Source: the human T2T-CHM13v2.0 reference genome, Homo sapiens. Taken from it: DNA of 64,000 nucleotides. The DNA lies in NCBI RefSeq assembly GCF_009914755.1, contig NC_060934.1. The stretch is one strand, 5' to 3'. The notes beneath the pieces were generated by a model. It did not search any database, was not told the DNA's origin, and saw only the letters and a program-made list of their open reading frames with translations. Positions 33,001 through 56,230 of this stretch are shown here, piece by piece. A program made the position numbers and the translations under genes. Each line of letters starts with the position of its first letter. The stretch's first letter is position 1.

Positions 33001-36000
33001 ATGAATGGAGTCGAAATGAATGGAATCGAATGGAATGGAATCGAATGGAATGGAATTGAATAGTATCGAAAAGAATAGAATGGAACGGAGCGTAATGGAA
33101 AGATATCGAATGGAATGGAAAGAAATGGACTCGAGTGGAATGGACTGGAATGGAATAGACTTGAATGCTATGGACTGGAGTGGAATGCAGTCAAATTGAA
33201 TGCAAACAAATGGAATGGAATGGAATGGAAAGGAATAGAATGGAATGGAAATGGATGGAACACAGTGGATTGGAATGGATTCGAATTGAATAGAATTGAA
33301 TGGAATGGCAATGAATGGAGTGGAATGAAATGGACTGGAATGAAATGGAATGGAATGGAATGAAATGGAATGGAATGAACTCTAATGGATTGTATTCCAA
33401 TGGAAGAGAATCAAATGGCATGGCATCGAATGGAATGGAATGGAATGGAATGGAATGGAATGCAATGGACTCATATTTAATGGACACGAATGGAATGGAC
33501 TCAAATAGATTGGACTCGAAAGGAATGGTCTCGACTGGAATTTATTCAAACAAAATGGAATTGAATGGAATGCAATAGTATGGAACAGAGTCAAATGGAA
33601 TGGAATCGAATGGAATGGACCGGAATGGAAAGGAATGGAATAGAAAGGACTGAAATGTAATGGATTGCAATGTAATAGATTTGAATGGAATGGAATCGAA
33701 TGGAATGTAATCAAATGGAATGGAATGGAATGCAATGGAATGGAATAGAATGGAATGCAAGAAAATGGAATGGACTGGAATCAAGTGGAATGGAATCGAA
33801 TGGAATGGATTCCAATGGAATGAAATCAAACGGAGTGGACTGGAATGGAATGGATTCGAATGGAGAGGACTGGAACAAAATGGAAACGAATGGATTGCAA
33901 TCGAATGGAATGGAATGGAGTGGAATGGAATAGAATCTAATGGAATGGCATTGAATGGACTGGAATGGAATAGATTCGAATGGAAAGGACTCCAACGGAA
34001 CTGAATCATATGGAATGGCATCGAGTGGAATGGAATGGAATGGAATGGAATGAAATGGAACCAAATGTAATGGACTCGAATGGAATGGACTCAAATAGAA
34101 TGGACTCTAAAGGAATGGTCTCGAATGGAATTTATTTGAATACATTGGAATCGAATGGAATGCAATAGAATGGAATGGATTGGAATCAAATCAAATCGAA
34201 TCGAATGGACTGGAATGGAATGGACTGGAATAGAATGAATTCGAATGTAATGGATTGCAAAGTAAATGATTTGAATGGGATGGAATCGAATTGAATGTAA
34301 TCAAAAGGAATGGAATGCAAGGCAATGGAATGGAATAAAATGGAATGCAATGGAATGGAATGGACTGGAATCGAGTGGAATGGAATGGAATCGAATGGAA
34401 TGGACTAGAATGGAATGGACTCCAATGGAATGTACTGGAACAAAATGGAAACGAAAGGATTGCAATCGAATGGAATGGAATGGAATGGTCTCAAATGGAA
34501 TGGAGTCGAATGGAATTGAATAGAATGGAATGGAATCGCATGGAATGGAATTGAATGGATTCGAAAAAATAGAATGGAATGGATTGTAATGGAAAGATAT
34601 CGAATGGAATGGAATGGAATGGAATGGAACGGAATCGCATGGAATGGAATTGAATGGATTCGAAAAGAATAGAATGGAATGGATTGTAATGGAAAGATAT
34701 CGAATAGAATGGAATGGACTCGAATGGAATGGAATTGAATGGATTCGAAAAGAATAGAATGGAATGGATTGTAATGGAAAGATATCAAATAGAATGGAAT
34801 GGACTCGAATGGAATGGATTGGAATGGAATGGAGTCGAATGGAATTGACTGGAGTGGAATGGACTCGAATTGAATGGAAATGATTGCAATGGAATGGAAT
34901 GCAAAGGAATAGAATGTAATGGAATCGGGTGGAATTGAATGGAATGGAGTTGAATAGAATAGAATCAAACGGAATGGCATCAAATGGAATGGAATGGAAT
35001 CGAATCAAATTTACACGAATGGAATAGAATCGAATGGAATGGCTTCGAATGGAATGGAATGGAATAGAATGGAATGGAATGTACCCAAATGTAATGGACT
35101 CGAATGGAATAGACTCAAATAGAATGGACACGAAAGGAATGATCTGGAATGGAATTTATTCGTATAGAATGGAATCAAATGGAATGCAATAGAATGGAAC
35201 GGAATTGAATAGAATGGACCAGAATGGAATGCACTGGAATAGAAAGGTCTAATATAATGGATTGCAATGCCATTGATTTGAATGGAATGGAATTGAGTGA
35301 AATGTAATCAAATTGAATGGAATTGTATGCAAAGGAATGGAATACAATGGAATGCAATGGAAAGGAGTAGAGCAGAATCGAGGGGAATGGAATCGAATGG
35401 AATAGTGTGGAATGGAATAGAATGGAAAGGAATAGAATGGAATGGAATCGGATGGAAAGGAATTGAATTTAATGGATTCAAATGGAATGACATGGAATGG
35501 AATGGAATGGAATGGAATGGAATGAAATGGAATGGACTCGAAATGAATGGACTCTAATGAAATAGAATCGAATGGAAAGGTATCTAATGGAATGGAAAGG
35601 AATGGAGTGGAATGGAATGGACCCAAATGGAATGGACCCCAATGGAATGGACTCAAATAGAATGGACTTGAAAGTAATAGTCTCAAATGGAATTCATTCG
35701 ACTAGAATGGAATCAAAAGGAATGCAATAGTATGGAACGGATTCGAATGCACTGGACCAGAATGGAATTGACTGGAATTGAACGGAATCGAATGTAATGT
35801 ATTTAAAAGTAGTTGATTCGAATGCTTTGGAATCGAAAGGAATGTAATCAAACGGAATGGAATAGAATGCAATGGAATGGAATAGGAGGGAATGCAATGG
35901 AATGGAATATAATGGAATGCAAAGGAATGAAACAGAGTGTAAGAGAGTGGAATGGAATCGAATGGAATGGAATCGATTGGAATGGACTAGAATGGATTCG

Positions 36001-38350
36001 AATGGAATGGACTGGAACAAAATGGAATCAAACTGATTGGAATCGAATGGAAAGGAATGGAATTGAATGCAATGGAATGGACTCGAATGGAATGGAGTCG
36101 AATGGAATGGAATCAAATGGAATGGAATCGAATACAATGGAATTGAACTGAATTGAAAGGAATAGAATGGAATGGAGTGTAATGGAAAGATATAGAATGG
36201 AATGAAGTGGAATGGAATGGAATGGACTCGAAAGGAATGGACTGGAAAGGAATGCACTCGAATGGAATGGACTGGTGTAGATGGGACTCAAATGGAAATG
36301 AAACGAATGGAATGCAATGGAATGGAACGGAAGGCAATAGAAGGAATGGAATAGGATGGAATGGAATTGAATGGAGTGGAGTCGAATAGAATAGAATCGA
36401 ATGGAATGGCATCGAATGGAATGGAATGGAATAGAATGGGCTCAAAATGAATGGACTCGAATAGAATCGAATGAATTGAATGGCAAGGATTGGAAAGGAA
36501 TGGAATGGAATGGACTCAAATGGACTGGACTCAAATGGTATAGAATGGAATGGAATGGAATGGCATCGAATGGAATGGAATGGAATGGAATGGACCCAAA
36601 TTTAATGGACTCGAATGGAATGGACTCAAATAGAATGGACTTGACAAGGAATGGTCTTGAATGGAATTTTTTCGAATAGAATGGAATTGAAAGGAATGCA
36701 ATAGTATGGAATGGAATCGATTGAAGGGAATCAAATGGAATGGACCAGAATGGTATGGACTGGAATAGAACAGACTCGAATGCAGTGGATTGCAATATAA
36801 TTGTTTCGAATGGAAAGGAATTGAATGGAATGTAAGCAAATGGAATGGAATGGAATGAAATGAAATGGAGTAAAATGGAATGAAAGGGAATGGAACGGAG
36901 TGGAATCGAGTGTAATGGATTCAAATGGAAAGGAATTGAATGGAATAGAATAGAATGGAATGGACTCGAATGGAATGGAATAGAATGGACTCGAAAGGAA
37001 TGGACTCGAATGGAATAGAATAGAATGGACTGGACTGGAATGGAATGGAATGGACCCAAATGTAATGGACTCGTATGGAATGGAATCAAGTAGAATGGAT
37101 TCGAAAGGAATGGTCTCGAATGGAATTTATTCAAATAGAATTTAATCAAATGGAATGCAATAGTATGTAATGAAATCGAATGGCATGGAATCAAATGGAA
37201 TGGACATGAATGGAATGGACTGAAATAGAAAGGACTTGAATGTAACGGATTGCAATGTAATTGATTTGAATGTAATGGAATCGAATGGAATGTAATCAAA
37301 TGGAATGCAATGGAATGCAATGGAATGGAATAGAATGGAATGGAGTGGAATCGAGTGGAACAGACTGGAAAAAAATGGAATGGAACAGAGTGTAATGGAA
37401 TGGAAAGGAATTTAATGGAAGGGAATGGAATGCACTCGAAAGGAAAGGAGTCAAAAGGAATGGAATCAAATGGAATGGAATCGAATGGAATGGAATTGAA
37501 TGGAATTGAAAAGAATAGAATGGAACGGAGCGTAATGGAAAGATATCAAATGGAATGGAATGGAATGGACTCGAATGGAATGGACTGGAATGGAATACAC
37601 TCGAATGGTATGGACTGGAGTGGAATGTAGTCAAATTGAATGGAAACGAATGGAATGGAAGGAATGGAAAGGAATAGAATGGAATGAAATCGGATGGAAC
37701 ACAATGGAATGGAATGGATTCGAATTGAATAGAATTAAATGGATTGGCAATGAACGGAGTGGAATGGAATGGAATGGAGAGGAATGGAATGGTATGGAAT
37801 GGACTCTAATGGATTGTATTTCAATGGAAGAGAATCGAATGACATGGCATCGAATGGAATGGAATGGAATGGACTCAAATATAATGGACTCGAAAGGAAT
37901 GGTCTCGAATGGAATTTATTCAAACAGAATTGAATCAAACGGAATGCAATAGTATTGAATGGAGTCGAATGGAATGGAATCGAATGGAATGGACCAGAAT
38001 GAAATGGACTGGAATAGAAAGGACTCGAATGTAATGGATTGCAATGTAATAGATTTGAAAGGAATGGAATTGAATGGAATGTAATCAAAAGGAATGCAAT
38101 GTAATGCAATGGAATGGAATTGAATGGAATGCAAGAAAATGGAACGGACTGGAATCGAGTGGAATGAAATTGAATGGAATGGATTCGAATGGAATGAATT
38201 CAAGTGGAATGGACTGGAATGGAATGGACTCGAATGGAAAGGACTGGAACAAAATGGAAACGAACGGATTGCAATCGAATGGAACAGAATGGAATGGAAT
38301 GGACTCGAATGGAATGGAGTATAATTAAATGGAACCGAATGGAATGCAAT
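1..38350 (+). repeat. Human satellite 3 (HSat3/SatIII) array, diverged (GGAAT)n with ~0.9-1 kb composite unit (layer A)
   Basis: Continuous GGAAT pentamers with recurrent variants (GGACT CGAAT, GGAATCGAAT, GCAAT, AGAAT). The landmark GGACCCAAATGTAATGGACTC...GGTCTCGAATGGAATTTATTCGAATAG...GCAATAGTATGG recurs about 40 times. It lacks the ATCATCGAATGG-dominated pattern of HSat2. The array continues off the left edge; the right boundary is approximate. Confidence 0.95.
15995..17871 (+). repeat. Recent near-identical tandem duplication of one ~0.93-0.95 kb HSat3 unit
   Basis: Private variants (GCATTCAGATGG, TATTTGGATTGC, CAATGGCACTGAATC, GGAACAGGATCAATGGAGTGGTATCG) recur at an offset of 931, rising to 946 after a 15-bp pentamer gain. 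Confidence 0.92.
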
Positions 38351-39911
38351 CGAATGGAATGGATTTGAATGAAATAGAAAGGAATAGAAAGGAAATGAAT
38401 GGACTCGAATGGAATGGAAAGGACACGAGTGTAACGGAATGGAATGGAATGGACTGGAATTATGGAATGGAATGGAATGGAATGGAATGGAATGGAATGG
38501 AATGAATTTGAATAGAATGGATCCAAACAGAATGGAATGGAATGGAGTGTAGTGGCCTCGAATGGAATGGAATGGACTCGAATGAAATGGAATGGACTCG
38601 AATGGAACGGAATGGAATCAACTCGAGTGCAATGGAATGGAATGGAACAGAATGGATTTGAATGGAATGGAATGGAATGAACCCGAATGGAATGGAACAG
38701 AATGGAATGCAATGGAATGGAGAGGAATGGAATGAAATGGACTCGAATGGAATGGAAAGGAATGGAATGGAATGGAATGGAATGGAATGGAATGGAATGG
38801 AATGGAATGCATTTGAATTGAATGGACCCGAAAAGAATGTAATGGAATGGAATGGAATGGAATGAAGTGGCCTCGAATGGAATGGAATGGAACGGAATGG
38901 ACTCGAATGAAATGTACTGGACTATGATGGAATGCAATGGGAAGGAATCAACTCGAGTGAAATGGCATGGAATGGAATGGAATGGATTCGAATGGAATGG
39001 AATGGACCCGAATGGAATGGAAGAGACTGGAATGGAATGGAGAGGAATGGAATGGAATGGAATGGAATGGAATGGAATGGAATGGAATGGAATGGAATGG
39101 ATTGAAATGGAATAAAAAAGAATGGAATGGAATGTATTGGAATGGAATGGAATGGAATGGAGTCGAATGGAATGGAATGCACTCTAATGGAATGGAATGC
39201 AATGGAATACACTCTAATGGAATAGAATGGAATGGAATGGAATGGAATGGAAGGGACTCGAATGAAATGGAACGGAATGGACTCGAATGGAATGGAATGG
39301 AATCGAATGGAATTGAATGGAATGGAATGGATTCGAATAGAATGGAAAGGAATGGAATTGAATGGAATGGAATGGAATCAAGTGGAATGGAATAGAATGG
39401 ACACGAATGGAATTGAATGGAAAGGAATGGACTCGAATGGAATAGAATTGAATGGACAAGAATGGAATGTAATGGAATAGAATGGACTGGAATGGAATGG
39501 AATGTAAAAGAATGGAATGGAATTGAATGGACTCGAATGGAATGGAAAGGACTTGAGTGTAATGGAATGGAATGGAATGGACTCGAGTTTTGGAATGCAA
39601 TGGAATGGAATGGAAAGGAATGGAATGGAATGGAATGCATTTGAATTGAATGGACCAGAAAAGAATGGAATGGAATGGAATGGAATGGGATGGAATGGAA
39701 TGGAATGGAATGGAATGAAATGGCCTCGAATGGAATGGAATTTAATGGAATGGACTCGAATGAAATGGAATGGACTCGAATGGAATGGAATGGAATGGAA
39801 ACAAATTGAGTGCAATGGAATGGAGTGGAATGGTATGGATTCTAATGGAATGGAAAGGAATGAACCCGAATGGAAAGGAACAGAATGGAATGGAGAGGAA
39901 TGGAATGGAAT
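38351..39911 (+). repeat. HSat3 transition zone, near-pure (GGAAT)n without the layer-A unit (layer B)
   Basis: Long perfect GGAAT runs. Own landmarks are GCATTTGAATTGAATGGACC(C/A)GAAAAGAATG (~38809, ~39637), TGGCCTCGAATGG (~38552, ~38868, ~39721) and GGAATCAACTCGAGTG (~38614, ~38944). Confidence 0.8.
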
Positions 39912-39924
39912 GGTGAAATGAAAT

Positions 39925-39988
39925 GTGAGCTGAGATTGTGCACTGCACTCCAACCTGGGTGACAGAGTGAGATTCCGTTGAAAGAAAG
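39925..39988 (+). mobile_element. Alu right-arm 3' fragment (first of 20 satellite-embedded copies)
   Basis: GTGAGCTGAGATTGTGCACTGCACTCCAACCTGGGTGACAGAGTGAGATTCCG matches the Alu consensus end GTGAGCCGAGATCGCGCCACTGCACTCCAGCCTGGGCGACAGAGCGAGACTCCG, with CpG>TpG changes and a 1-bp deletion. Confidence 0.93.
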
Positions 39989-42900
39989 GAATGGAATGGA
40001 ATGGATTTACAATGGAATGTAATGTAATGGAGTGGAGTGGAATGGAGTGGCGTGGCGTGGAGTGAAGTGGAATTGAGTGGTATGGATTCTTATGGAATGG
40101 AATGGAATGGAGTGGAGCGGAGTGAAGTGGGGTGGAGTGGAGTGGAATGGAGTGGAATGGAATGGGATGGAAAGGAATGAAGTGAAGAGGAGTGGCGTAG
40201 AGTGGAGTGGAGTGGAATTTAGTAGTATGGATTGCTATGGAATGGAATAGAATGGAATTGCATGGAGTGTAGTGGGGTTGAGTGGAGTGGAAGGGAATGG
40301 AGTGGAATGGAATGGGATGGAATGGAATGGAGAGGAGTGGAGTGGAAAGGTGTAGAATGGAATGGAATGGAATACAGTGGAGTGTAGTGGAATGGAGGGG
40401 AGTTGAGTGCAGTGGAATGGAATGGAGTGGAATGAAGTGGAGTGGAGTGGAATGGAGAGGAGTGGAGTGGAGTGGAATGGAGCAGAGAGGAGTGGAGTGG
40501 AGTGGAGTGAATTGAAGTGGAGTGGGATGGAATGGAGTGGAGTGGAATGGAAGGGAATGGAATGGAATGGAATCGAATGGAACAGAATTCAATGGAATGG
40601 AATGGAATCGAATCGAATGGAATGGAATCGAAATGAATGGAATGGAATAGAATGGAATGGAATCGAATGGCATTGAATGGATTCGAATCAAATGTGGTGA
40701 AGTGGACTGGAGTGGAATGGAGTCAAAAGGAATGGGGTGGAATGGAATTGAATGAAGTAGAGTGCAGTGGAGTGGAATGGAGTAGAGTGGAATGGACTGG
40801 GAAGGAATGGAATTGAACGGAGTGGAGTGAAGTGGAGTGGAATGGAATGCAATGGAATGGAATGGAATGGAATGGTGAAATGAAATGTGAGCTCAGATTG
40901 TGCACCGCACTCCAACCTGGGTGACACAGTGAGATCGTGTCAAAAGAAAGGAATGGAATAGAATGGATTTAGAATGTAATGTAATGGAATGGAGTGGAGT
41001 GGAGTGGCGTGGAGTGGATTGGTGTGGAGTGGAATGGAGTGGTTTGGATAGTTATGCAATGGAATGGAATGGAGTGGAGTGGAGTGGCATGAAGTGGAGT
41101 GGAATCGAGTGGAATCAAATGGGATGGAATGGAACAGAGTAGAGTGGAGTGGAGTGGAAAGATGCAGAAAGAAATGGAATGGAATGGAGAGGAGTGGAGT
41201 GGAGGGCAGTTGAGTAGAGTGGATTGGAGTGCAGTGAAATGGAGTGGAATGGAGTGGTGTGGAATGGAGTAGAATGGAGTGGAGTGGAGTGGAGTGGAGT
41301 CGAGTGGAAAGGTATAGAATTGAATGGAATGGAAAGGAGAGGAGTGGAGTGGAGTGGATTTGAGTGGAAAGGATGGTAGAGCAGTGGAATGGAGTGGAGT
41401 GGAATGGAGTAGAGTGGAGTGGAGTGGAATGGAATAGAACGAAATGGAATGGAGTGGATTGGAATGGAATGGAATGGAATGCAATGGAATGGAATTGAAC
41501 GGAATTGAATGGATGCCAATGCAATGGAATGGAAATGAATGGAATGGAATCGAATGGAATGCAGTGAAATGGAGTGGAGTGGAGTGGAGTGGATTGGAGT
41601 GGAATGAAAAGGGATGGAATGGAAATGAATGGAGTGGAGTGGAGTAGAATGGAGTGGAGTGGAATGGAATGGGAAGGAATGGAATTGAACGGAGGGGTGT
41701 GGAGTGGAGTGGAATGAAATGCAATGGAACAGAATCGAATGGAATGCTGAAATGAAATGTGAGCTGAGATTGCACACTGCACTCCAGCCTGGGTGAGACA
41801 GTGAGATCCTGTCGAAAGAAAGGAAGGGAATGGAATGGATTTAGAATGGAATATAATGGAATGGATTTAGAATGGAATGTAATGGAATGGAGTGCAGTGG
41901 AGTGGAGGGGAGTGGAATGGAATGGACTGGAGTGGAGTGGAACGGAATGGTATGGACTGTTATGGAATGGAATGCAATGGAGTGGAATGGAGTGCTGTGG
42001 GGTGGAGTGGAGTGGAGTGGAATGGAGTAGAATGGAATGGGATGGAATGGAATGGAGAGGAGTGGAGTGGAGTGGAAATGTGTAGAATAGAATGGAATGG
42101 AGTGGAGTGGAGTGGAGTGGAGTGGAAATGTGTAGAATAGAATGGAATGGAGTGGAGTGGAGTGGAATTGAGTGGAGTGGAATGGAGTGGAGTGGAATGG
42201 AGTGGAGTGGAGTAGAGTTTAGTTTTGTGGAATGGAGTGGAATGGAGTGGAGTGGTTTGGAATGAAAGGGAGTGGAGTGGAGTGGTGTGGAATGGAGTGG
42301 ACTGGGAACGAATGGAGTGGAGTGGAATGGAGTGGACTGGAGTGGAATGGAATGGAATGCAATGGATTGGAATGGAATGGAATTGAATGCAATGGAATAG
42401 AAAGCCATAGAATGGTGAAATGAAATGTGAGCTGAGATTGTGCACTGCCCTCCAGCCTGGGTGAGAGAGTGAGATCTTGTCAAAAGAAAGGAATGCAATG
42501 GAATGGATTTAGAAAGAATGGAATGGAATGGAATGGAGTGAAATGGAGATGAGTGGAATGGAGTGGAGTGGAATGGAGTGGAGTGGAGTGGAGTGGAATG
42601 GAATGAAATTGAATGGAATCGAATTGAATCGAATCGAATTGAATCAAATTGAATGGAATCGAGTCGAATGGAATTGAATAGAAAAAATGGATTTGAATGG
42701 AATCGAATCAAATGGAATCGAATGGCATCAAATGGAATCGAATAGAATGCGATGAAGTGGAATGGAGTGCAGTGGAATGGAGTGGAATGGATTGGGGTGG
42801 AATGAAATTCAATGGAGTGGAGTGGAGTGGAATAGAATTGAATGGAATGGAATGGGAAGGAATGGAATTGACTGGAGTGGAGTGGAGTGGAATGGAATGC

Positions 42901-45900
42901 AATGGAATGGAGTGGAGTGGAATGGAATGCAATGGAATGGAGTGGAGTGGAATGGAATGCAATGGAATGGAGTGGAGTGGAATGGAATGCAATGGAATGG
43001 AATGGAATGGAATGGAATGGAATGGAATGGAATGGAATGGTGAAATGAAATGAGAGCTGAGATTGTGCACTGCAGTGCAGCCTGGGTGATAGAGTGAGAC
43101 CCTGTTGAAAGAAAGGAATGCAATGGAATGGATTTAGAATGGAATGGAGTGGAGTGGAGTGGCCTGGAGTGGAGTGGAATGCAGTGAAATGGAGTGGAGT
43201 GGAGTGGCGTGGAGTGGAGTGGAATGCAGTGGAATTGAGTGATATCGATTGTTGTGGAATGGAATGGAGTGGAGTGGAGTGGAGTGGGTTGGAATGGAGA
43301 GGACTGGAATGGAGTGGAATGGAATGGAGTGGAGTGGAGAGGAAATGTGTAGAATGGAATGGAATGGAATGGAGTTGAGTGGAGTGGAGTGGAGTTGAGT
43401 GGAATGGAATGGAATGGAATGGAATGGAGTGGAATGGAGTGTAGTGGAATGGAGTGGAGTGGAATGAAGTGGAGTGGGGTGGAGTGGAGTGGAATGGAAT
43501 GGAATGAAATGGAATGGAATCGAAAGGAATGGAATGGAATGGGATGGAATGGGATGGAATGGGATGGAATGGAATGGAATGGAATGGAATGGTGAAATGA
43601 AATGTGAGCTCAGATTGTGCACTGCACTCCAACCTGGGTGACAGAGTGAGATTCCGTCAAAAGAAAGGAATGGAATCGAATGGATTTACAATGGAATGTA
43701 ATGTAATGGAGTGGAGTGGAGTGGCGTGGCGTGGAGTGGAGTGGAGTGGAGTGGAATTGAGTGGTATGGATTGTTATGGAATGGAATGGAATGGAGTGGA
43801 GCAGAGTGGAGTGGGGTGGAGTGGAGTGGAGTGGAATGGAGTGGATTCGAATGGGATGGAAGGGAATGAAGTGGAGTGGAGTGGCGTAGAGTGGAGTGGA
43901 GTGGAATTTAGTGGTATAGATTGTTATGGAATGGAATGCAATGGAGTTGAGTGGAGTGTAGTGGGGTGGAGTGGAGTGGAGGGGAATGGAGTGGAATGGA
44001 ATGGGATGGAATGGAATTGAGAGGAGTGGAGTGGAGTGGAAAGGTGTAGAAGGGAATGGAAAGGAATATAGTGGAGTGGAGTGGAGGGGAGTTGAGTGCA
44101 GTGGATTGGAATGGAGTGGAATGAAGTGGAGTGGAGTGGAATGGAGAGGAGTAGAGTGGAGTGGAATGGAGAGGAGTAGAGTGGAGTGGAATGGAGCAGA
44201 GTGGAGTGGAGTGAAGTGAAGTGGAGTGGAATAGAATGGAGTGGAGTGGAATGGAAGGGAATGGAATGGAATGGAATAGAATTGAACAGAATTCAATGGA
44301 ATGGAATGGAATGGAATCAAATGGAATGGAATCGAATGGAATGGAATCGAATGGCATCGAATGGATTCGAATGAAATGTGGTGAAGTGGAGTGGAGTGGA
44401 ATGGAGTCCAAAGGAATGGGGTGGAATGGAATTGAATGAAGTAGAATGCAGTGGAGTGGAATGGAGTGGAGTGGAATGGACTGGGAAGGAATGGAATTGA
44501 ACGGAGTGGAGTGGAGTGGAGTGGAATGGAATGCAATGGAATGGAATGCAATAGAATGGTGAAATGAAATGTGAGCTCATATTGTGCACTGCACTCCAAC
44601 CTGGGTGACACAGTGAGATCGTGTCAAAAGAAAGGAATGGAATAGAATGGATTTAGAATGGAATGGAATGGGATGGAGTGGAGTGGAGTGGAAAGGTGTA
44701 GAATGGAATGGAATGGAATGGAATACAGTGGAGTGGAATGGAGTGGAGGGGAGTTGAGTGCAGTGGAATGGAATGGAGTGGAATGAAGTGGAGTGGAGTG
44801 GAATGGAGAGGAGTGTAGTGGAGTGGAGAGGAATGGAGCAGAGTGGAGTGGAGTGAAGTGAAGTGGAGTGGAATGGAATGGAGTGGAGTGGAATGGAATG
44901 GAGTGGAGTGGAAAGAAATGGAGTGGAGTGGAATGGACTGGTGTGGAGTGGAATGGACTGGTGTGGAATGGAATGGTATGGAGTGGAGTGGAATGGAATG
45001 GAGTGCAGTAGAGTGGAGTGGAGTAGAATGGAGTGGAGTGGAATGGAGTGGAATGGACTGGAATGGAGTGGAATGGAGTGTCATGGAATGGAATGGATTG
45101 GAGTGGAGTGGCATGGAGTGCAGTGCAATGGAGTGGAGGGGCGTGGAATGGAATGGAATGGAATGAAATGGAATGGAATGGAATGAAATGGAATGGAATC
45201 GAAAGGAATCAAATGGAATGGAATGGAATGGAATGGAGTTCGATGAAATGGTGTGGAGAGGAGTGGAATGGAGTGGAATGGAACAGGGTGGAACGGAATT
45301 CAATGGAGTGGAGTGCAGTGGAGTGGCATGGAGTGGAGTGGAATGGAATGGGAAGGAATGGAATTGAACAGAGTGGAGTTTAGTGGAGTGAAGTGGAGTG
45401 CAATGGAACAGAATGGTGAAATGAAATGTGAGCTGAGATTGTGTGCTGCACTCCAGCTTGGGTGCCCTAGTGAGATCCTGTCAAAAGAAACGAATGGAAT
45501 GGAACAGATTTAAAATGGAATGTAATGGAATGGACTGGAGTGGACAGGAGTAGCATGGAGTGGAGTGGAGTGGAATGGAGTGGTATGGATTCTTATGGAA
45601 TGGAGTGGAGTGAGGTGAAGTGGAGTGGAGTGTACTGGAGTGGAATGGAATGAGATGGAATGGAATGGACTGGAGTGGAGTGGAGTGGAAAGTTGTAGAA
45701 TGGAATGGAATGGAGTATAGTGGAGTGGAGTGGAGGGGAGTTGAGTGCAGTGGAATGGAATGGAGTGGAAAGGAGTTGAGTGGAGTGGAGGGGAGTTGAG
45801 TGCAGTGGAATGGAATGGAGTGGAAAGGAGTTGAGTGCAGTGGAATGGAGCAGAGTGGAGTGAAGTGGAGCGGAGTGAAGTGAAGTGGAGTGGAATGGAA

Positions 45901-48900
45901 TGGAGTGGAATGGAATCGAATGGAGTTGAGTGGAATGGACTGCAGTGGAGTGGAATGGACTGGAGTGGAATGGTATGGAGTGGAGTGGAATGGAATGGAG
46001 TGCATTGGAGTGGAGTGGAATGCAGTGGAGTGGAATGGAGTAGAATGGGCCTGACTGGAGTGGAATGGATTGGAATGGAATGGAGTGGAGAGGAGTGGAA
46101 TGGAGTTCAGTGCAATGGAGTGGAGTGAAGTGGAGTGGAATGGAATGGAATGGAATGAAATGGAATGGAATCAAAAGAAATCAAATGGAATGGAATGGAA
46201 TGGAATGCGGTGAAATATTGTGGAGTGGAGTGGAATGGACTGGAATGGAATGGGGTGGAATGGAATTCAATGGAGTGGAGTGGAGTGGAATGACAAGGAG
46301 TGGAATGGGATGGGAAGGAATAGAAATGAATGGAGTGGAGTGGAGTGGAGTGAAGTTTAATGGAATGCAATGGAATGGAATGCAGAAATCAAATGTGAGC
46401 TGAGATTATGCACTGCACTCCAGCCTGGGTGACCTAGTGAGATCCTGTCAAAAGAAAGGAATGGAATGGAATGGATTTGAAATGGAATGTAATGGAATGG
46501 AGTGGAGTGGAGTGGAATAGCATGGAGTGGGGTGGAGTGGAATGGAGTGGTATGGATTCCTATGGAAAGGAATGGAATGCAGTGGACTGGAGTGGGGTGG
46601 AGTGGAGTGGAATGTAGTGGAATGGAATGAGATGGAATGTAATGGAGTGGAGTGGAGTGGAATGGTGTAGAATGGAGTGGAATGGTGTGGAGTGGAGTGG
46701 ATTGGAGTTGAGTGGAGTGGATTGGAATGCAGTGGAATGGAGTTGAATGGAGAGGAGTGGAGTAGAGTGGAGTGGAATGGAATGGAGTGGAATGTAATCA
46801 AATCAAATGCAATGGAATGTAATGGAATGGAATGGAATCGAATGGCATTGAATGGAATTGATTGGAATGTGGTGAAGTGGAGTGGAGTGGAGTGGAAAGG
46901 TGTAGAATGGAATGGAATGGAGAGGAGTGTAGTGGAGTTTAGTGGAGTGGATTGGAGTGCAGTGGAATGGAGTGGAGTGTATTGGAGTAGAGTGGAGTGG
47001 AGTGGAATGGAATAGAATGAAACGGAAGGGAGTGAAAGGGAATGGAATGGAATGGAATGGAATGGAATGGAATGGAATGGAATTGAATGGAATTGAATGG
47101 AGTCAAATGCAATGGAATGGAAATGAATGGAATGGAATCGAATGGAATGCAGTGAAATGGAGTGGAGTGGATTGGAATGGAGTGGAATGAAAATGGGTGG
47201 AATAGAATTGAATGGAGTGGAGTGGAGTAGAATGGAGTGGAGTGCTAAGGAATGGGAAGGAATGCAATTGAACAGAGTGGAGTGGAGTGGAATGAAAAGA
47301 AATGGAATGGAATCAAATGGAATGCTGAAATGAAATGTGAGCTGAGATTGCGCACTGCATTCCAGCCTGGGTGACAGTGTGAGATCTTGTCGAAAGAAAG
47401 GAAGGGAATGGAATGTATTTAGAATGGAATAAAATGGAATGGATTTAGAATGGAATGTAACGGAATGGAGTAGATTGGAGTGGAGTGGAATGGAGTGGAG
47501 TGCAATGGAGTGGAGTGGAATTGAGTGGAATGGAATGGAATGGAATGGAATCAAATGGAATGGAATGGAATCGAATGGAATGGCATTGAATGACATCGAA
47601 TGGAATTGAATGGAATGTGGTGAAGTGGAGTGGAGTGGAATGGAGTGGAATGGAATGGGGTGGAATGAAATTTAATGGAGTGGAGTGAAGTGGAGTGGAA
47701 AGGAGTGGAGTGGAATGGACTGGGAAGGAATGGAATTGAACGTAGTGGAGTGGAGTGGAGTGGTGTGGAATGGAATGCAATGGAATGAAATGGACTGGAA
47801 TGGTGAAATGATATGTGAGCTGAGATTGTGCACTGTACTCCAACGTGGGTGACAGAGTGAGATCCTGTCATAAGAAAGGAAAGGAATGGAATGGATTTAC
47901 AATGGAATGTAATGGAATGGAGTTTAGTGGAGTGGAGTGGCGTGGAGTGGAGTGGAGTGGAACGGAATGGTATGGATTGTTATGGAATGGAATTCAATGG
48001 AGTGGAGTGGAGTGCTGTGGGGTGGAGTGGAGTGGAGTTGAAAGGAGTGGAATGGAATGTGATGGAATGGAATGGAGTGGAGTTGAGTGGAGTGGAGTGG
48101 AAAGGTGTAGAATGGAATGGAGTGGAATGGAGTGGAGTGGAGTGGAGTGGAATTGAGTGGAGTGGAATGGAATGGAGTGGAATGGCATGGAGTGTAATGG
48201 AGTGGAGTGGAGTGGAGTTTACTGGAATGGAGTGGAATGGAGTGGAGTGGATTCGAATGAAAAGGAGTGGAGTGGAGTGGAATGGAATGGAGTGGAATGG
48301 AATGAGTGGAGTGGAATGGAGTGGAGTGGAATGGAATGGAATGCAATGGAGTGGAATGGCATGGAATGGTGAAATGAAATGTGAGCTGAGATTGTGCACT
48401 GCCCTCCAGCCTGGGTGAGAGAGTGAGATCCTGTCAAAAGGAAAGAAAGGAATGGAATGGATTTAGAATTGAATGGAATGAAATGGAATGGAATGGAATG
48501 CAGTGGAATGGAATGGGGTGGAATGGAGTGGAGTGGAGTGGAGTGGAGTGGAATGGAATGGAATCGAATGGAATCGAATCGAATCGAATGGAATAGAATC
48601 AAATGGAATGGAATGGAATCGAACGGAATCGAATGGAATAAATGGAATCGAATGGAATTGAATGGAATCAAATCAAATGGAATCGAATGGCATCGAATGG
48701 AATCGAATGGAATACGGAGAACTGGAATGGAGTGGAGTGGAATGGAGTGGAATGGAATGGTGTGGAATGGAATTCAATGGAGTGGACTGGAGTGGAATGG
48801 AATCAAATGGAATGGAATGGGAAGGAATGGAATTGAATGGAGTGCAGTGGAGTGGAGTGGAATGGAATGCAATGGAATGGAATGGAATGGTGAAATGAAA

Positions 48901-51900
48901 TGTGAGCTGAGATTCTGCAGTGCAATGTAGCATGGGTGACCTAGTGCAATCCTGTCAGAAGAAAGGAATGGAATTGAATGGATTTAAAATAGAATGGAAT
49001 GGAATGGAGTGGAGTGGAGTGGACTAGAGTGGAGTGGAGTGGAGTGGAGTGGAGTGGAGTGGAGTGGAGTGGAATGGAATGGGAAGGAATGGAATTGAAC
49101 AGAGTGGAGTGAAATGAAATGTAATGGAATGGAATTGAATGGAATGGTGAAATGAAATGTGAGCTGAGATTGTGCACTGCACTCCAGCCTGGGAGAAAGA
49201 GTGAGATCCTGTCGAAAGAAAGGAAGGGAATGGAATGGATTTAGAATGCAATATAATGGAATGGATTTAGAATGGAATGTAATGGAATGGAGTAGGCTGC
49301 AGTGGAGTAGAGTGGAGTGGAATGGAGTGGAGTGGAATGGAGTGAAGTGGAGTAGAGTGGAGTGGAATGGAGTGGAGTGGAATGGAATGGAATGGAAAGG
49401 AATGGAGTGAAAAGAAGTGAAATGCAGTGGGGTGGAATGGCATGGAATGGAGTCGAGTGTAGTGTAGTGGAATGGAGTGGAGTGCAGTGGAATGGAATTG
49501 AGTGGAATGGAATGGAATGGAGTGGAATGGAATATAATGGAAGGGATTGGAATGGAGTGGAGTGGAGTGGAATGGAGTGGAATGGAGTGGAGTGGAATGG
49601 AATGGAATGGATTGGTAATGAATGGAATGGAATAGAATGGAATGGAATGGAATCGAATGGAATGGAATTGAATGGCATCGAATGGAATTGAATGGAATGT
49701 GGTGAAGTGGAGTGGAGTGGAATGGAGTGGAATGGAATGGGGTGGACCGAAATTTAATGGAGTGGAGTGAAGTGGAGTGAAATGGAGTGGAGTGGAATCG
49801 ACTGGGAAGGAATGGAATTGAACGGAGTGGAGTGGAGTGGAGTGGTGTGGAATGGAATGCAATGGAATGGAATGGACTGGAATAGTGAAATGATATGTGA
49901 GGTGAGATTGTACACTGTACTTCAACCTGAGTGACAGATGAGATCCTGTCATAAGAAAGGAAAGGAATGGAATGGATTTACAATAGAATGTAATGGAATG
50001 GAGTTTAGTGGAGTGGACTGGTGTGGAGTGGAATGGAGTGGAGTGGAATGGAATGGTATGGATTGTTATGGAATGGAATTCAATGGAGTGGAGTGGAGTG
50101 CTGTGGGGTGGAGTGGAGTGGAGTTGAATGGAGTGGAATGGAATGTGATGGAATGGAATGGAGTGGAGTTGAGTGGAGTGGAGTGGAAAAGTGTAGAATG
50201 GAATGGAATGGAGTTGAGTGGAGTGGAGTGGAAAAGTGTAGAATGGAATAGAATGGAATGGAGTGGAGTGGAGTGGAATTGAGTGGAGTGGAATGGAATG
50301 GAGTGGAATGGCGTGGAGAGCAATGGAGTGGAGAGGAGTGGAGTTTACTGGAATGCAGTGGAATGGAGTGGAGTGGATTCGAATGAAAAGGAGCAGAGTG
50401 GATTGGAGTGTAAAGGAATGGAGTGGACTGGAATGGAATGGAGTGGAGTGGAATGGAATGGAGTGGAGTGGAGTGGAGTGGAATGGAATGCAATGGAGTG
50501 GAATGGAATGGAATCGAATGCAATGGAGTGGAATGGCATGGAATGGTGAAATGAAATGCGAGCTGAGATTGTGCACTGCCCTCCAGCCTGGGTGGGAGAG
50601 TGAGATCCTGTCGAAAGAAAAGAATGGAATGGAATGGATTTAGAATGGAATGGAATGGAATGGAATGGAATGGAATGCAGTGGAATGGAATGGGGTGGAA
50701 TGGAGTGGAGTGGAATGGAGTGGAGTGGAGTGGAGTGGAGTGGAGTGGAATGGAATGGAATGAAATCGAATGGAATCGAATCGAATCAAATGGAAAAAAT
50801 TGAATCTAATGGAATTGAATGGAATCGAATCAAATGGAATCGAATGGCATCGAATGGAATCGAATGGAATACGGAGAACTGGAATGGAGTGGAGTGGAAT
50901 GGAGTGGAATGGAATGGTGTGGAATGGAATTCAATGGAGTGGAGTGGAGTGGAATGGAATTGAATGGAGTGGAATGGAATCGAATGGAATGGAATGGGAA
51001 GGAATGGAATTGAACGGAGTGCAGTGGAGTGGAGTGGAATGGAATGCAATGGAATGGAATAGAATGGAATGGTGAAATGAAATGTGAGCTGAGATTCTGC
51101 AGTGCAATGCAGCCTGGGTGACCTAGTGTGATCCTGTCAAAAGAAAGAAATGGAATTGAATGGATTTAAAATAGAATGTAATGGAATTGAGTGGAGTGGA
51201 GTGGATTAACGTGGAGTGGAGTGGAGTGGAATTGAATGGGAAGGAATGGAATTGAATGGAGTGGAGTGGAATGAAATGCAATGGAATGGAATTAAATGGA
51301 ATGGTGAAATGAAATGTGAGCTGAGATTGCGCACTGCACTTCAGCTTGGGAGAAAGAGTGAGATCCTGTCGAAAGAAAGGAAGGGAATGGAATGGATTTA
51401 GAATGCAATATAATGGAATGGATTTAGAATGGAATATAATGGAATGGAGTAGACTGGAGTGGAGTGGAGTGGTGGGGAATGGAGTGGAGTGGAATGGAGT
51501 GGAGTGGAATGGAATGGAATGGAATGGAAAGGAACGGAGTGGAAAGAAGTGAAATGGAGTGGGGTGGAATGGCATGGAATGGAGTCGAGTGTAGTGTAGT
51601 GGAAGGGAGTGGAGTGCAGTAGAATGGAATTGAGTGGAATGGAATGGAGTGGAATGGAATATAATGGAAGGGAATGGAATGGAGTGGAGTGGAATGGAGT
51701 GGAGTAGAGTGGAATGGAGTGGAGTGGAATGGAGTGGAATGGAATGGAATGGAATAGAATGGAATGGAATGGAATGGAATGGCATCGAATGGAATTCAAT
51801 GGAATGTGGTGAAGTGGAGTGGAGTGGAATGGAGTGGAATGGAATGGGGTGGAATGAAATTTAATGGAGTGGAGTGAAGTGGAGTGGAATGGAGTGGAGT

Positions 51901-52635
51901 GGAATGGACTGGGAAGGAATGGAATTGAACCGAATGGAGTGGAGTGGAATGGTGTGGAATGGAATGCAATGGAATGGAATGGACTGGAATGGTGAAATGA
52001 TATGTGAGCTGAGATTGTGCACTGCACTCCAACCTGGGTGACAGAGTGATATCCTGTCATAAGAAAGGAATGGAATGGAATGGATTTACAATGGAATGGA
52101 ATGGAATGGAGTGTAGTGGAGTGGCGTGGAGTGGAGTGTAACGGAAAGGTATGGATTGTTATGGAATGGAATTCAATGGAGTGGAGTGGAGTGCTGTGGG
52201 GTGGAGTGGAGTGGAGTGGAATGGAGTGGAATGGCATGGGATGGAATGGAATGGAGTGGAGTTGAGTTGAGTGGAGTGGAAAGGTGTAGAATGGAATGGA
52301 GTGGAATGGAATGGAGTGGACTGGAATTGAGTGGAGTGGAATGGAATGGAGTGGAGTGGAGTGGAATGGAGTGGATTGGAGTGGAATGGAGTGGAGTGGA
52401 GTTTAGTGGAATGGAGTGGAGTGGAGTGGAATGGAGTGGAGTGGAGTTTAGTGGAATGGAGTGGAGTGGATTGGAATGAAAGGGAGTGGAGTGGAGTGGA
52501 ATGGCGTGGAATGGAATGGAATGGAGTGGAGTGGAATGGAGTGGAGTGGAGTGGAATGGAATGGAATGCAATGGAGTGGAATGGAATGGAATGGAATGAA
52601 ATGGAATGGAATGGCATGGAATGGTGAATTGAAAT

Positions 52636-52700
52636 GTGAGCTGAGATTGTGCACTGCACTCCAGCCTGGGTGAGAGAGTGAGATCCTGTCGAAAGAAAGG
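52636..52700 (+). mobile_element. Alu right-arm 3' fragment (last of 20 satellite-embedded copies)
   Basis: GTGAGCTGAGATTGTGCACTGCACTCCAGCCTGGGTGAGAGAGTGAGATCCTGTCGAAAGAAAGG, with the same breakpoints as the other copies. Confidence 0.93.
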
Positions 52701-54457
52701 AATGGAATGGAATGGATTTAGAATGGAATGGAATGAAATGGAATGGAATGGAATGGAATGGAATGTGGTGGAATGGAGTGGAGTGAAATGGAGTGGAATG
52801 GAGTGGAGTGCAGTGGAATGGAGTGGACTGGAGTGGAATGGAATGGAATGGAATGGAATGGAGTGGAGTGGAGTGGAATTGAATGGAGTGGAATGGAATG
52901 CAATGCGGTGAAGTGGAGTGCAGTGGAGTGGAATGAAGTGGAATGGAATGGGGTGGAATGGAATTGAATAGCGTGGAGTGGAATGGAGTGTAGTGGAATG
53001 GAATTTCGCTGTAGATAAAAACTAGTATTTCCGCCTACCATTGAGTGTACTTATAGCTAACCAAAACGGCACTCTGTCTCGGGAATACAGATTTGCCTAG
53101 AGGTATCCTATTGCAGTCAACGAAAGAGCAATGAGGGATAGAAAAGGTTAGTGATGGAGTGACCAAAGCTGCATTTTACAAAAAACAATGTAAAAACCTT
53201 ACGGATTGGTTCTGCTAACTTACTACAGTTTACATTCCTCTCAGGTGGCAGAATTGTTGAGTTTTTTCTTAAGATAGAAAAGCAATTCAGATAATCTGAA
53301 ATCTCCACAAGAAGGATAAGAAGCACAACGGAAACTGTTCTAGGCAGGAAGTCAATCTTTTCAACTGTCTGTGCTCCATAGAAACAATTGTCTGCACTGG
53401 GAGTCATATGCGGTACAGAAAACAGCCAGACCTCTGATCCTCTCATTTGTGATTTCAGAAGAAATTACCAGTCAACTGAGTAATTCACTGACTAAAGTAT
53501 ACATTTGGCACTGAAAGAGGTTAGACGGATAACTATTTGTATCACCATATTCATGAAGCTGGAATATTTTCCATTACTCGTATCACATCCGAATGGAAGA
53601 TTTTAAAAGCTCTCTCATCTTGTAAGATGGATATGAAATAACATTTTCTGAAAAATGAAATCATTAACACACCTGCGAGGTGGATGGAAGAGAAAAAAAA
53701 GAATAATCAGCTTGAGTTCTTCTCCTTGATAAGACAACTCACTAAAAACATAGAGAGAAAAATACAAGTTTAAAATAATTAACCAGAAGAAGACAATTTT
53801 GGAGTTTTTAAATGGCTGATAAGATTTTAATTTGCTGCAAGTTGAAAATAAGTATATTACTTGTGTTTTAAGGCACATAATGAGCAATTATATCACACAT
53901 GATAGATTCAGCAGTAAAATATTATCCGTTAACAGCTGGTACTCATAAAAGCATAGCACAATGTGAAGATGGAATTTGCTAAAATAAACCATCTTCTGAA
54001 AACTACTATTCTGTAAATTTAAAAACAAACTTTATATGTTATTTGTCTTATTTAATAGGTCTTTGATAAAAATGAGATATTTGAAAGTAGGTGCTACCTT
54101 AATTAGTTCTTTATATTAGACAGCTGGTTACAGTAATGCACAGTAAGGTGCTACATACAAATATTGCTAAATTTTCTGCATATACTATGTATTTAGCTTA
54201 AATTATTTGAAATTTTATAGTTAAAGTAATAAATGTATATTTAAATGTTTTGACACAAATTGCAAATATACCTTAAAAAGCGTCTTACACTCTAAATATT
54301 ATTTGTCACCTATATATTTGTCTTTTCTCTAAAGGAAAGTTTCAATTTTTCCCTTGAAGCTTTAATTATTTCAGTCTATAAAACAAACTGATAATGTTCA
54401 AATTAACAGGAAAAAAAGGTTTACAGATATGTTCACAAGTATGCACTTGGAGTTTAC

Positions 54458-54532
54458 ATAATATATATAAATATATATACAAATATTTGTATATTATAAA
54501 TAGATATACAAATATATGCTATATATATAAAA
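54458..54532. repeat. AT-rich low-complexity (TA)n-like tract
   Basis: ATAATATATATAAATATATATACAAATATTTGTATATTATAAATAGATATAC... Confidence 0.8.
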
Positions 54533-54539
54533 ACTCCAG

Positions 54540-55255
<716 letters not shown>

Positions 55256-55371
55256 CCTCCATATGTACAATAAATATTATTGTGATTTTTAATCTTTACT
55301 CTTCTGTGGAGAAAACACAGGTGTGATTTCTAGTGTAGCTGAACATCACATTTATTTGACAATATTGCACT

Positions 55372-55396
55372 TGTGTGTGTGTGTGTGTGTGTGTGT
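55372..55396. repeat. (TG)12 microsatellite
   Basis: Perfect TG run. Confidence 0.95.
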
Positions 55397-56230
55397 AGCT
55401 ACTCTTTACCTTTGTTCTCACTTAATGATTAGATATTAACAATTAATTCAGTAACATGCATGTTTTGCAATTTTTCTCCATGTTATGCTTTAAATTAGAT
55501 TAATCATGCCCCTATAATGTGTACACTTTAACCTTTGACTATAGGTCTCAATCTTACTTTGGCTCCTGTATTTGAATTTATGCTAATAAAGTCCTCAGCT
55601 AAAAAGGATTATATAAACTTATCTACATTTTTACTAGTATTCTGGTGTCATTTTAAATTATGTAATTAAATCAAATTTTAATTTGGATTATTGTTATCTG
55701 AGTTAAGGATCTAAATTTTTAATTTTCTTATAGATGTTACGTAACTATTTCTGAACCATATATTGACTAATCTGCCCTTTATATGATGTGCAGTATAAGA
55801 GCTTGGGATTGATTCATTTGCAAAGATGAATGCTTGAGAAGTAGATATTTAATCTTAACATTTCAAAGTCTACTCAATAACCTAGAATGGAAAAATAGCC
55901 TATAGGTTGAAAAACTCCTGTAGTGAAGAAAGAAAATAACTAATATAAAGTGACAATATAAATAAGTATTTATTTTATTATCACCCTGAAATTTGATAAT
56001 ACAAACATGTAATATCTACATATCATCCATATATCAGGTCATAAAAAATCAATACATTCTTCAAAAATTTAGCATAACAGAAAATGCACTCTCTCTCCTT
56101 GATGGAATTAAGTTACAAATAAAAGTAAAAATAAGTAGATAAGTAGATGGAAGTAGATGTTTAAAAACAAAGAAAAATATTTGTTTTGGATAACATAAAA
56201 ACTCAATTGACAATTCCAATATTTCAAGAA

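What the first reader, a model, noticed from the sequence alone, without database searches (positions are those of the whole stretch)
39912..52700. Satellite with 20 amplified copies of a single Alu 3'-end cassette, separated by variable GGAGT/GGAAT spacers
Seen: a conserved ~77-bp cassette (GGTGAAATGAAAT-GTGAGCTGAGATTGTGCACTGCACTCCAGCCTGGGTGACAGAGTGAGATCCTGTC-AAAAGAAAGG) occurs 20 times in one orientation. Start-to-start spacings are about 962, 872, 668, 625, 552, 967, 857, 967, 942, 478, 566, 521, 257, 738, 661, 526, 232, 688 and 632 bp. All copies share the same 5' breakpoint, the 1-bp deletion (GCGCCACT>GTGCACT), the loss of the terminal TC and largely the same CpG>TpG changes. No copy has its own TSD or poly(A). 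Known: the core is the last ~55 nt of the Alu right arm. Inference: one old Alu fragment was captured and amplified as part of a satellite unit rather than by 20 retrotranspositions. Standard annotation would split this into simple repeats plus tiny Alu hits and hide it as a distinct composite satellite. Alu-containing satellites exist (HSat1B/DYZ2), but I cannot tell whether this one is already named.
Basis: partly seen in the sequence, partly recalled or inferred. Interest (0 to 1): 0.8.

Follow-up and report, generated by a model that had tools for sequence, protein, structure and literature searches.

The report
Alu-tagged HSat3A4 satellite block, chr10
The 20 identical Alu-tail fragments are real, but they belong to a known human satellite 3 subfamily (HSat3A4) that carries about 1,500 such fragments on many chromosomes, and the chr10 block arrived already amplified as part of a duplicated pericentromeric segment.

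Summary
There are 20 same-strand copies of a 79-bp cassette, made of a leader, the last ~55 nt of an Alu and an A-rich tail remnant. They sit at exactly the stated spacings, with no indel at either breakpoint.

The block is not a separate unnamed chr10 satellite.

- **Subfamily.** Window 39,912-53,004 is a GGAGT-rich block. It carries the HSat3A4-specific 24-mer of Altemose 2014 six times exactly, and no other subfamily's 24-mer.
- **Genome-wide spread.** The same 5' and 3' breakpoints recur about 1,500 times in this assembly, on chr1, 3, 4, 9, 13, 14, 15, 16, 17, 20, 21, 22 and contig 24.
- **Deletion marker.** The 1-bp deletion marks a minor derived lineage: 219 hits against 1,441 undeleted at the same stringency.
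- **Amplification predates chr10.** Fourteen of the 19 chr10 units are colinear with 14 consecutive units on chr22 and chr14. The satellite/non-satellite junction is shared by 8 loci. The 5.9-kb flank is 95-96% identical at six of those loci.
- **No constraint.** The cassette is no more conserved than its spacers.
- **In print.** Alu fragments in HSat3 arrays are described in the T2T centromere and T2T-Y preprints.

Verdict: ordinary and already known in kind.

The parts
1..39911 (+). Neighbouring GGAAT-rich HSat3 array, HSat3A2/A1-like, with a ~920-950-bp periodicity and no cassette. Context only.
   Evidence: (HSat3A2 24-mer 13 times and HSat3A1 5 times at <=1 mismatch; HSat3A4 0 times).
39912..53004 (+). 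HSat3A4-type GGAAT/GGAGT satellite block holding the 20 Alu-3' cassettes. Mean spacing is 669 bp.
39912..39990 (+). Cassette 1
40874..40952 (+). Cassette 2
41746..41824 (+). Cassette 3
42414..42492 (+). Cassette 4
43039..43117 (+). Cassette 5
43591..43669 (+). Cassette 6. Unit 6 is 89.4% identical to unit 1, which lies 3,679 bp upstream.
44558..44636 (+). Cassette 7. Unit 7 has no partner in the chr22/chr14 chain.
45415..45493 (+). Cassette 8
46382..46460 (+). Cassette 9
47324..47402 (+). Cassette 10
47802..47880 (+). Cassette 11
48368..48446 (+). Cassette 12
48889..48967 (+). Cassette 13
49146..49224 (+). Cassette 14
49884..49962 (+). Cassette 15, the most diverged copy, with a 1-base gap.
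50545..50623 (+). Cassette 16
51071..51149 (+). Cassette 17
51303..51381 (+). Cassette 18
51991..52069 (+). Cassette 19
52623..52701 (+). Cassette 20, the last one, 381 bp before the end of the satellite.
47802..51990 (+). Two tandem copies of a four-cassette higher-order segment of ~2.1 kb: units 11-14 (2,082 bp) and units 15-18 (2,107 bp). The same duplication is present at chr17 22.5 Mb.
   Evidence: rare 16-mer distance peak at 2,080-2,160 bp.
52993..53029 (+). Junction between the satellite, which ends at 53,004, and the non-satellite flank. Shared by 8 loci in the genome.
53005..58870 (+). 5.87-kb non-satellite pericentromeric duplicon. At least 25 further full-length copies at 92-96% identity, and 95-96% at six of the loci that share the junction.
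58871..64000 (+). A further duplicated flank, 95% identical to chr21 at 11.494 Mb. It holds a true Alu on the - strand, whose 3' end lies at ~63,510-63,575.

Best explanation
The region is a 13.1-kb block of the known human satellite 3 subfamily HSat3A4. It lies at the edge of the 10p11 HSat3 array. Its repeat unit carries one fixed 79-bp cassette: a satellite-derived leader, the last ~55 nt of an Alu right arm, and a short A-rich tail remnant.

Proposed history:
1. One Alu (or right-arm monomer) 3' fragment became part of a GGAAT/GGAGT unit in an ancestral array. The 3' edge looks like the original insertion junction. The 5' edge is either a 5' truncation at insertion or a later deletion. This step is inferred.
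2. Unequal exchange and duplication multiplied the unit. Pentamer slippage made the spacers vary in length, while the non-repetitive cassette stayed fixed in length. The result is shown; the mechanism is inferred.
3. A 1-bp deletion arose in one sub-lineage (shown as a marker).
4. A multi-unit stretch of that sub-lineage, together with its non-satellite flank, was copied to at least 8 pericentromeric or acrocentric sites, including 10p11 (shown by the shared junction, flank and unit order).
5. On chr10 only a few units were added afterwards: unit 7, and one extra 2.1-kb four-unit period that chr17p also has.

The cassette is a neutral passenger and a lineage marker, not a working element.
For: - Same breakpoints in all 20 copies, with no displaced boundary.
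- Same 5' junction genome-wide. The deleted form (40-mer, <=3 mismatches) gives 219 hits and the undeleted form (41-mer) gives 1,441 hits. Reversed-pattern controls give 0.
- Same 3' junction: 1,488 hits, control 0.
- The HSat3A4 24-mer of Altemose 2014 Table 1 is exact 6 times in 39,901-53,004 and absent elsewhere in the window. All 13 other subfamily 24-mers score 0 exact. The 24-mer is also exact in 8 of the 9 other cassette-bearing regions fetched, and in 10 of 12 window hits it lies 73-88 bp upstream of a cassette.
- Unit-level chaining puts chr10 units 01-06, 08-09 and 14-19 against 14 consecutive units (11-24) of both chr22 11.575-11.605 Mb and chr14 8.77-8.80 Mb. Substitution-only identity is 0.91-0.96.
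- For 16 of 19 chr10 units the best match lies on another chromosome rather than on chr10.
- Cassettes at homologous positions on chr10 and chr22/chr14 are 94.2-94.4% identical. Different cassettes within chr10 average 85.7%. The multiplication is therefore older than the dispersal.
- The junction pattern is present at exactly 8 loci: chr10, 13, 14 (two), 17 (two), 21 and 22.
- The 5.87-kb flank is 95-96% identical at six of them, and alignment runs through the junction.
- Cassettes on chr16 and chr4 have the same breakpoints but keep the C.
- Cassette substitution identity is 0.942-0.944 against 0.937-0.938 for spacers. Gap columns number 1 against about 1,140-1,210.
Against: - Subfamily assignment rests on one published 24-mer per subfamily. 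I could not see the T2T CenSat label for this block.
- Altemose 2014 Table 1 lists HSat3A4 on 13, 14, 15, 21, 22 and Y, not on chr10 or chr17. A later preprint calls it acrocentric-specific.
- The 1.37-kb period reported for clone pTRS-47 is not seen here. The periods here are 2.1 kb and 3.68 kb.
- In one search the pool of other-chromosome units (238) is far larger than the chr10 pool (18), which favours finding the best match elsewhere.
- The chain skips units 07 and 10-13. After unit 19, chr22 has 5 more units that chr10 lacks, so rearrangement since the split is substantial.
- Cassette copies differ from their consensus by about 8%. Taken at face value this is old for the 'AluY' origin stated in the T2T-Y preprint. 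I could not resolve this.
- No ape genome was available, so no step is dated directly.
Confidence: 0.85

Rival explanations
1. In-situ origin. An Alu fragment was captured in the chr10 array and amplified there to 20 copies, making a chr10-specific composite satellite.
For: - Some local duplication is real. Units 1 and 6 are 89.4% identical, and units 12/16, 13/17, 14/18 and 15/19 are 84-88% identical.
- Rare 16-mer distance peaks lie at 2.08-2.16 kb and 3.68 kb.
Against: - The cassette with the same breakpoints occurs about 1,500 times on other chromosomes.
- Fourteen of the 19 units are colinear with chr22 and chr14.
- The junction and flank are shared by paralogous loci.
- The 2.1-kb duplication is also on chr17p.
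Confidence: 0.04
2. Ongoing exchange. The similarity between chr10 and the acrocentric or chr17 blocks is kept up by continuing non-allelic exchange or gene conversion, not by one old duplicative transfer followed by independent decay.
For: - chr13 and chr21 blocks have nearly identical unit-length series, as do chr14b and chr22. This fits the exchange among acrocentric short arms described in print.
- The T2T-Y preprint reports no clustering of HSat3-Alu fragments by chromosome.
Against: - For chr10 itself the flank is only 95-96% identical to the paralogues.
- Positional homologues are about 94% identical.
- chr10 has its own unit gains and losses.
- Together these point to no recent exchange involving chr10.
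Confidence: 0.08
3. Independent insertions. The 20 copies are separate retrotranspositions of truncated Alus into the satellite.
For: None beyond the Alu homology itself: 93% over 43 nt to the window's own Alu.
Against: - Identical 5' and 3' boundaries, identical leader, a shared 1-bp deletion and conserved flanks in all 20 copies.
- All copies are in one orientation.
Confidence: 0.01
4. Functional element. The cassette is kept by selection inside the satellite, for example as a protein-binding or transcription-related site.
For: Its length is invariant: 1 gap column in 1,106, while the spacers carry about 1,140-1,210 gap columns.
Against: - Substitution identity of the cassette (0.942-0.944) is the same as that of the spacers (0.937-0.938) between positional homologues.
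- Length invariance is expected for any non-repetitive insert in a slippage-prone pentamer array.
- There is no Rfam match.
Confidence: 0.02

Closest known systems
HSat3A4 subfamily of human satellite 3 (Altemose et al. 2014, PMC4022460; linked there to clone pTRS-47 of Choo et al. 1990)
   Same: - The subfamily-specific 24-mer is present exactly, and it is the only subfamily 24-mer that is.
- Both are GGAAT/GGAGT mixtures.
- The cassette's genome-wide distribution covers the acrocentrics and contig 24, the chromosomes listed for A4.
- As an inference, the published size of 2,518 kb per diploid genome, divided by the ~0.67-kb spacing seen here, predicts roughly 1,900 cassettes per haploid genome. 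About 1,500-1,660 were found at stringent thresholds.
   Different: - chr10 and chr17 are not in the 2014 list for A4.
- The 1.37-kb pTRS-47 period is not seen here.
- The chr10 copies belong to a minor sub-lineage with a 1-bp deletion in the cassette.
HSat3-associated Alu fragments described in the T2T-Y preprint (10.1101/2022.12.01.518724) and 'fragments of ancient TEs' in HSat3 units in the T2T centromere preprint (10.1101/2021.07.12.452052)
   Same: The same phenomenon: Alu fragments interspersed with HSat3 on Y and the acrocentrics, related to one another across chromosomes and not clustering by chromosome. My unit-level result agrees.
   Different: The passages I read do not mention chr10, the single shared breakpoint pair, the 1-bp deletion lineage or the shared junction. 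They call the fragments AluY, which a 55-nt piece cannot establish here.
HSat1B / DYZ2 (Frommer et al. 1984, as cited)
   Same: A satellite whose repeat unit includes an Alu-derived part that was amplified with the unit.
   Different: [quoted passage not shown] Here the spacers are GGAAT/GGAGT pentamers and the Alu part is only ~55 nt. The T2T-Y preprint treats the two seeding events as independent.
Pericentromeric interchromosomal segmental duplications of 10p11. Guy et al. 2003, Genome Res 13:159, seen only as a reference-list entry; its content is recalled.
   Same: The block and its flank behave as a duplicon shared with other pericentromeres and acrocentric arms.
   Different: I could not read that paper, so I cannot say whether this block is described in it.

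Membership tests
Human satellite 3 (HSat3) | Array derived from the (GGAAT)n / (CATTC)n pentamer | tested here: met
   TRF reports period 5 with consensus GAATG over 36,000-53,004. There are 47-67 GGAAT and 36-57 GGAGT per kb in the block.
Human satellite 3 (HSat3) | Pericentromeric or acrocentric short-arm location | tested here: met
   The window is chr10:38.94-39.00 Mb (task header). That this is 10p11, just short of the alpha satellite, is recalled and not tested.
HSat3A4 (Altemose 2014) | Subfamily-specific 24-mers | tested here: met
   The most common A4-specific 24-mer is exact 6 times in 39,901-53,004. The 13 other subfamily 24-mers score 0 exact. Only one 24-mer per subfamily was available.
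HSat3A4 (Altemose 2014) | Published localisation on 13, 14, 15, 21, 22 and Y | tested here: inconclusive
   Cassette-bearing arrays are on those chromosomes, but chr10 is not in the 2014 list. The T2T localisation heat-map is a figure and could not be read.
pTRS-47 higher-order array (Choo 1990) | Tandem 1.37-kb (1,366-bp) repeat unit | tested here: not met
   The dominant periods in the block are 2.08-2.16 kb and 3.68 kb, with unit lengths of 232-967 bp. The chr10 block is related to that array but is not the array itself.
pTRS-47 higher-order array (Choo 1990) | Sequence identity to the clone | not testable with these tools
   Neither the clone sequence nor the paper is held.
HSat1B / DYZ2 composite satellite | Unit made of AT-rich sequence plus an Alu part | tested here: not met
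   The spacers are GGAAT/GGAGT with GC 0.43-0.48.
Composite satellites made entirely of TE pieces (T2T usage) | [quoted passage not shown] | tested here: not met
   Only ~55 nt of each 232-967-bp unit is TE-derived.
Independent Alu insertions | Individual breakpoints, own poly(A) and own target-site duplications | tested here: not met
   The boundaries, the tail remnant and the flanks are all shared.

The most novel reading that the evidence does not exclude
All of the roughly 1,500 Alu fragments embedded in HSat3 in this genome descend from one capture event, because they share one 5' and one 3' breakpoint. Two later rare changes define a resolved clade of 8 duplicons at 10p11, 13p, 14p (two), both sides of cen17, 21p and 22p. 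Those changes are a 1-bp deletion in the cassette and a fixed satellite/non-satellite junction. This would give a marker system for ordering how HSat3A4 spread from acrocentric arms to metacentric pericentromeres. The T2T-Y passages I read report no clustering by subgroup or chromosome.
Probability: 0.4. Interest if true: 0.3.

Novelty: already known. Interest (0 to 1): 0.15.

Why it matters
It matters little beyond annotation. The result shows that short 'Alu' hits inside (GGAAT)n tracts at 10p11 are a fixed part of the HSat3A4 unit and not insertions. It also shows that the chr10 block is a paralogue of blocks on chr13, 14, 17, 21 and 22. The shared breakpoints, the 1-bp deletion and the shared junction are convenient rare-change markers for tracing pericentromeric duplication. 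They do not reveal a new kind of element or a function.

Tried and rejected
- **Rfam.** An E-value scan of 39,800-53,100 against Rfam gave 0 matches, so there was no independent 7SL/Alu call.
- **More paralogous DNA.** Flank extent was then read from coordinates only.
- **Papers not held.** Choo 1990, Choo 1992, Jarmuz 2007, Guy 2003 and the PMC copy of the T2T centromere paper. Bandyopadhyay 2001 is cited as the source for TE fragments in HSat3 units, but I never looked it up. I therefore cannot say whether the cassette was drawn in those clone sequences. bioRxiv supplements are closed, so the T2T subfamily and TE tables were not seen.
- **Papers without relevant text.** The Hoyt et al. repeat preprint has no HSat3 text. 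Two reviews and the HSat3 transcription-factor preprint do not mention Alu in HSat3.
- **Selective constraint.** Considered and rejected, because cassette and spacer substitution identities are equal.
- **Alu subfamily.** Not attempted. The 55-nt piece is too short, and consensus sequences would have had to come from memory.
- **Flank ORFs.** An ORF scan of 53,005-64,000 found only 5 ORFs of 90-109 aa. I did not pursue them.
Full report
**Observation**

The window's + strand holds 20 copies of a 79-bp cassette between 39,912 and 52,701. A search with the first copy finds all 20, plus one genuine Alu on the minus strand near 63,5xx. A 23-nt core motif with up to 3 mismatches matched 16 times against 0.00 expected.

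In the alignment of all 20 copies with flanks, neither boundary is displaced. The only gap inside a cassette is one base in copy 15. About 25 nt on each side is conserved too. Compared with the window's own Alu, the cassette starts at GTGAGC, lacks one C (GTGCCACT becomes GTGCACT), and ends at the natural Alu 3' end. A short A-rich stretch, (A/G)AAAGAAAGG, follows and runs straight into GGAAT. I read that stretch as a tail remnant shared by all copies. This is a small correction to 'no poly(A)'.

**Setting**

- Window 1-39,9xx is GGAAT-rich satellite with few GGAGT (1-14 per kb).
- Window 40,001-53,000 has 36-57 GGAGT per kb and higher GC.
- TRF sees one pentameric array up to 53,004.
- The sequence then turns abruptly into non-satellite DNA.

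Upstream of cassette 1, identity to the paralogous blocks falls to the pentamer background of about 0.7. The block therefore starts at about 39.9 kb.

**Which satellite**

I used the most common subfamily-specific 24-mers printed in Table 1 of Altemose et al. 2014 (PMC4022460, passages).

- The cassette block has 6 exact hits to the HSat3A4 word and none to the other 13.
- The upstream array has HSat3A2-like and HSat3A1-like hits only.
- The A4 word is part of the same unit: in 10 of 12 hits at up to 1 mismatch it lies 73-88 bp before a cassette.
- It is exact in 8 of the 9 other cassette-bearing regions I fetched, chr4 being the exception.

That paper links A4 to clone pTRS-47, with a 1,366-bp unit. 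That period is not present here. The block is therefore A4-type sequence, not that higher-order array itself.

**Genome-wide picture**

In the window's own assembly I searched three junction patterns, each at up to 3 mismatches and each with a reversed-pattern control of 0.

| Pattern | Hits |
|---|---|
| 40-mer across leader and Alu start, deleted form | 219 |
| 41-mer, same stretch with the C retained | 1,441 |
| 35-mer across the Alu end, tail remnant and GGAAT | 1,488 |

The listed places lie on chr1, 3, 4, 9, 10, 13, 14, 15, 16, 17, 20, 21, 22 and contig 24, which I take to be Y. The lists are truncated, so per-chromosome counts are not available. All listed chr10 places fall inside the window.

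In 20 fetched 10-kb regions there are 5-24 cassettes per 10 kb, in one orientation per region and at irregular spacing. The chr16 and chr4 copies show the same two boundaries but keep the C. So the capture is single and old, and the 1-bp deletion marks a minor derived lineage to which the chr10 copies belong.

**Where the amplification happened**

I cut every array into units running from one cassette start to the next, and compared them.

- For 16 of 19 chr10 units the best match is on another chromosome. One caveat: that pool holds 238 units against 18 on chr10.
- A monotone chain places chr10 units 01-06, 08-09 and 14-19 against 14 consecutive units (11-24) of chr22 and of chr14 8.77-8.80 Mb. 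Substitution-only identity is 0.91-0.96.
- chr10 has unit 07 and one 2.1-kb four-unit period in excess. chr17 22.5 Mb has that same period twice.
- After unit 19, chr22 has five units that chr10 lacks.
- Cassettes at homologous positions are 94.2-94.4% identical between chromosomes. Different cassettes within chr10 average 85.7%.

The multiplication therefore predates the arrival on chr10.

**The block travelled with its flank**

- Alignment runs through the satellite end into the flank at chr22, chr14 (two loci), chr17, chr21 and chr13.
- A 37-nt pattern across the junction occurs at exactly 8 loci, with control 0.
- The 5.87-kb flank has at least 25 further full-length copies at 92-96% identity. 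It is 95-96% identical at six of the junction-sharing loci.
- The next 5.1 kb is 95% identical to chr21 11.49 Mb.

As a rough inference from a recalled neutral rate of about 1e-9 per site per year, 4-5% divergence suggests a transfer on the order of 20 million years ago. No ape genome was available to test this.

**Function**

Between positional homologues the cassette's substitution identity is 0.942-0.944 and the spacers' is 0.937-0.938. Only indels differ: 1 gap column against about 1,140-1,210. This is what a non-repetitive passenger in a slippage-prone array should show. There is no sign of constraint.

**Literature**

[quoted passage not shown] For HSat3 it cites Bandyopadhyay et al. 2001.
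[quoted passage not shown] It adds that Y and acrocentric fragments cluster together, without clustering by chromosome or subgroup.
- Searches for HSat3 with Alu, satellite III with Alu or GGAGT, HSat3A4, pTRS-47 with Alu fragment, and HSat3 with Alu-fragment wording turned up no paper that describes the chr10 block, the single breakpoint pair or the deletion lineage.
- The older clone papers and the supplements could not be read.

**Verdict**

The thing is a member of a named satellite subfamily, and its Alu content is already in print. The chr10 copies were largely inherited through a segmental duplication, not made in place. Interest is low.

One loose end remains. Copies differ from their consensus by about 8%. 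This sits uneasily with an AluY origin if ordinary rates apply.

Noticed in passing
window 1-39,900: The neighbouring GGAAT-rich array is HSat3A2/A1-like by 24-mer and contains no cassette. Distances between rare 16-mers peak at 920-950 bp, which suggests a nested repeat of ~0.94 kb.
   Followed up: partly
window 53,005-58,870: A 5.87-kb non-satellite duplicon has at least 25 further full-length copies at 92-96% identity, on chr1, 2, 7, 9, 13, 14, 16, 17, 21 and 22. Most copies align from query base 1 or 8, that is, from the satellite boundary, yet only 8 loci keep the HSat3 junction. What adjoins the other copies was not examined.
   Followed up: partly
window 58,871-64,000: This stretch is 95% identical to chr21:11,494,260-11,499,389, so the flank is a patchwork of at least two duplicons.
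   Followed up: no
window 39,970-39,985 and 43,650-43,665 (cassettes 1 and 6): These two copies share a cluster of changes at the Alu 3' end (ATTCCGT rather than ATCCTGT), several differences within 10 nt. It could be a small conversion tract or a shared ancestral variant.
   Followed up: no
window 47,350 and 51,329 (cassettes 10 and 18); also chr13, chr14 and chr17 copies listed: Some copies read GCGCACT where most read GTGCACT. This is either a retained CpG or a back-change, and it is shared with copies on other chromosomes.
   Followed up: no
L049 (chr16:35.636 Mb) and L050 (chr4:49.543 Mb): Cassettes are denser here (23-24 per 10 kb, gaps 148-1,012 bp) and more diverged, and they are of the undeleted form. 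These may be older or faster-evolving A4-like arrays.
   Followed up: partly
chr13 11.07-11.09 Mb vs chr21 8.095-8.115 Mb; chr14 8.77-8.80 Mb vs chr22 11.575-11.605 Mb: The unit-length series are almost identical within each pair, which points to very recent sharing between these acrocentric short arms.
   Followed up: no
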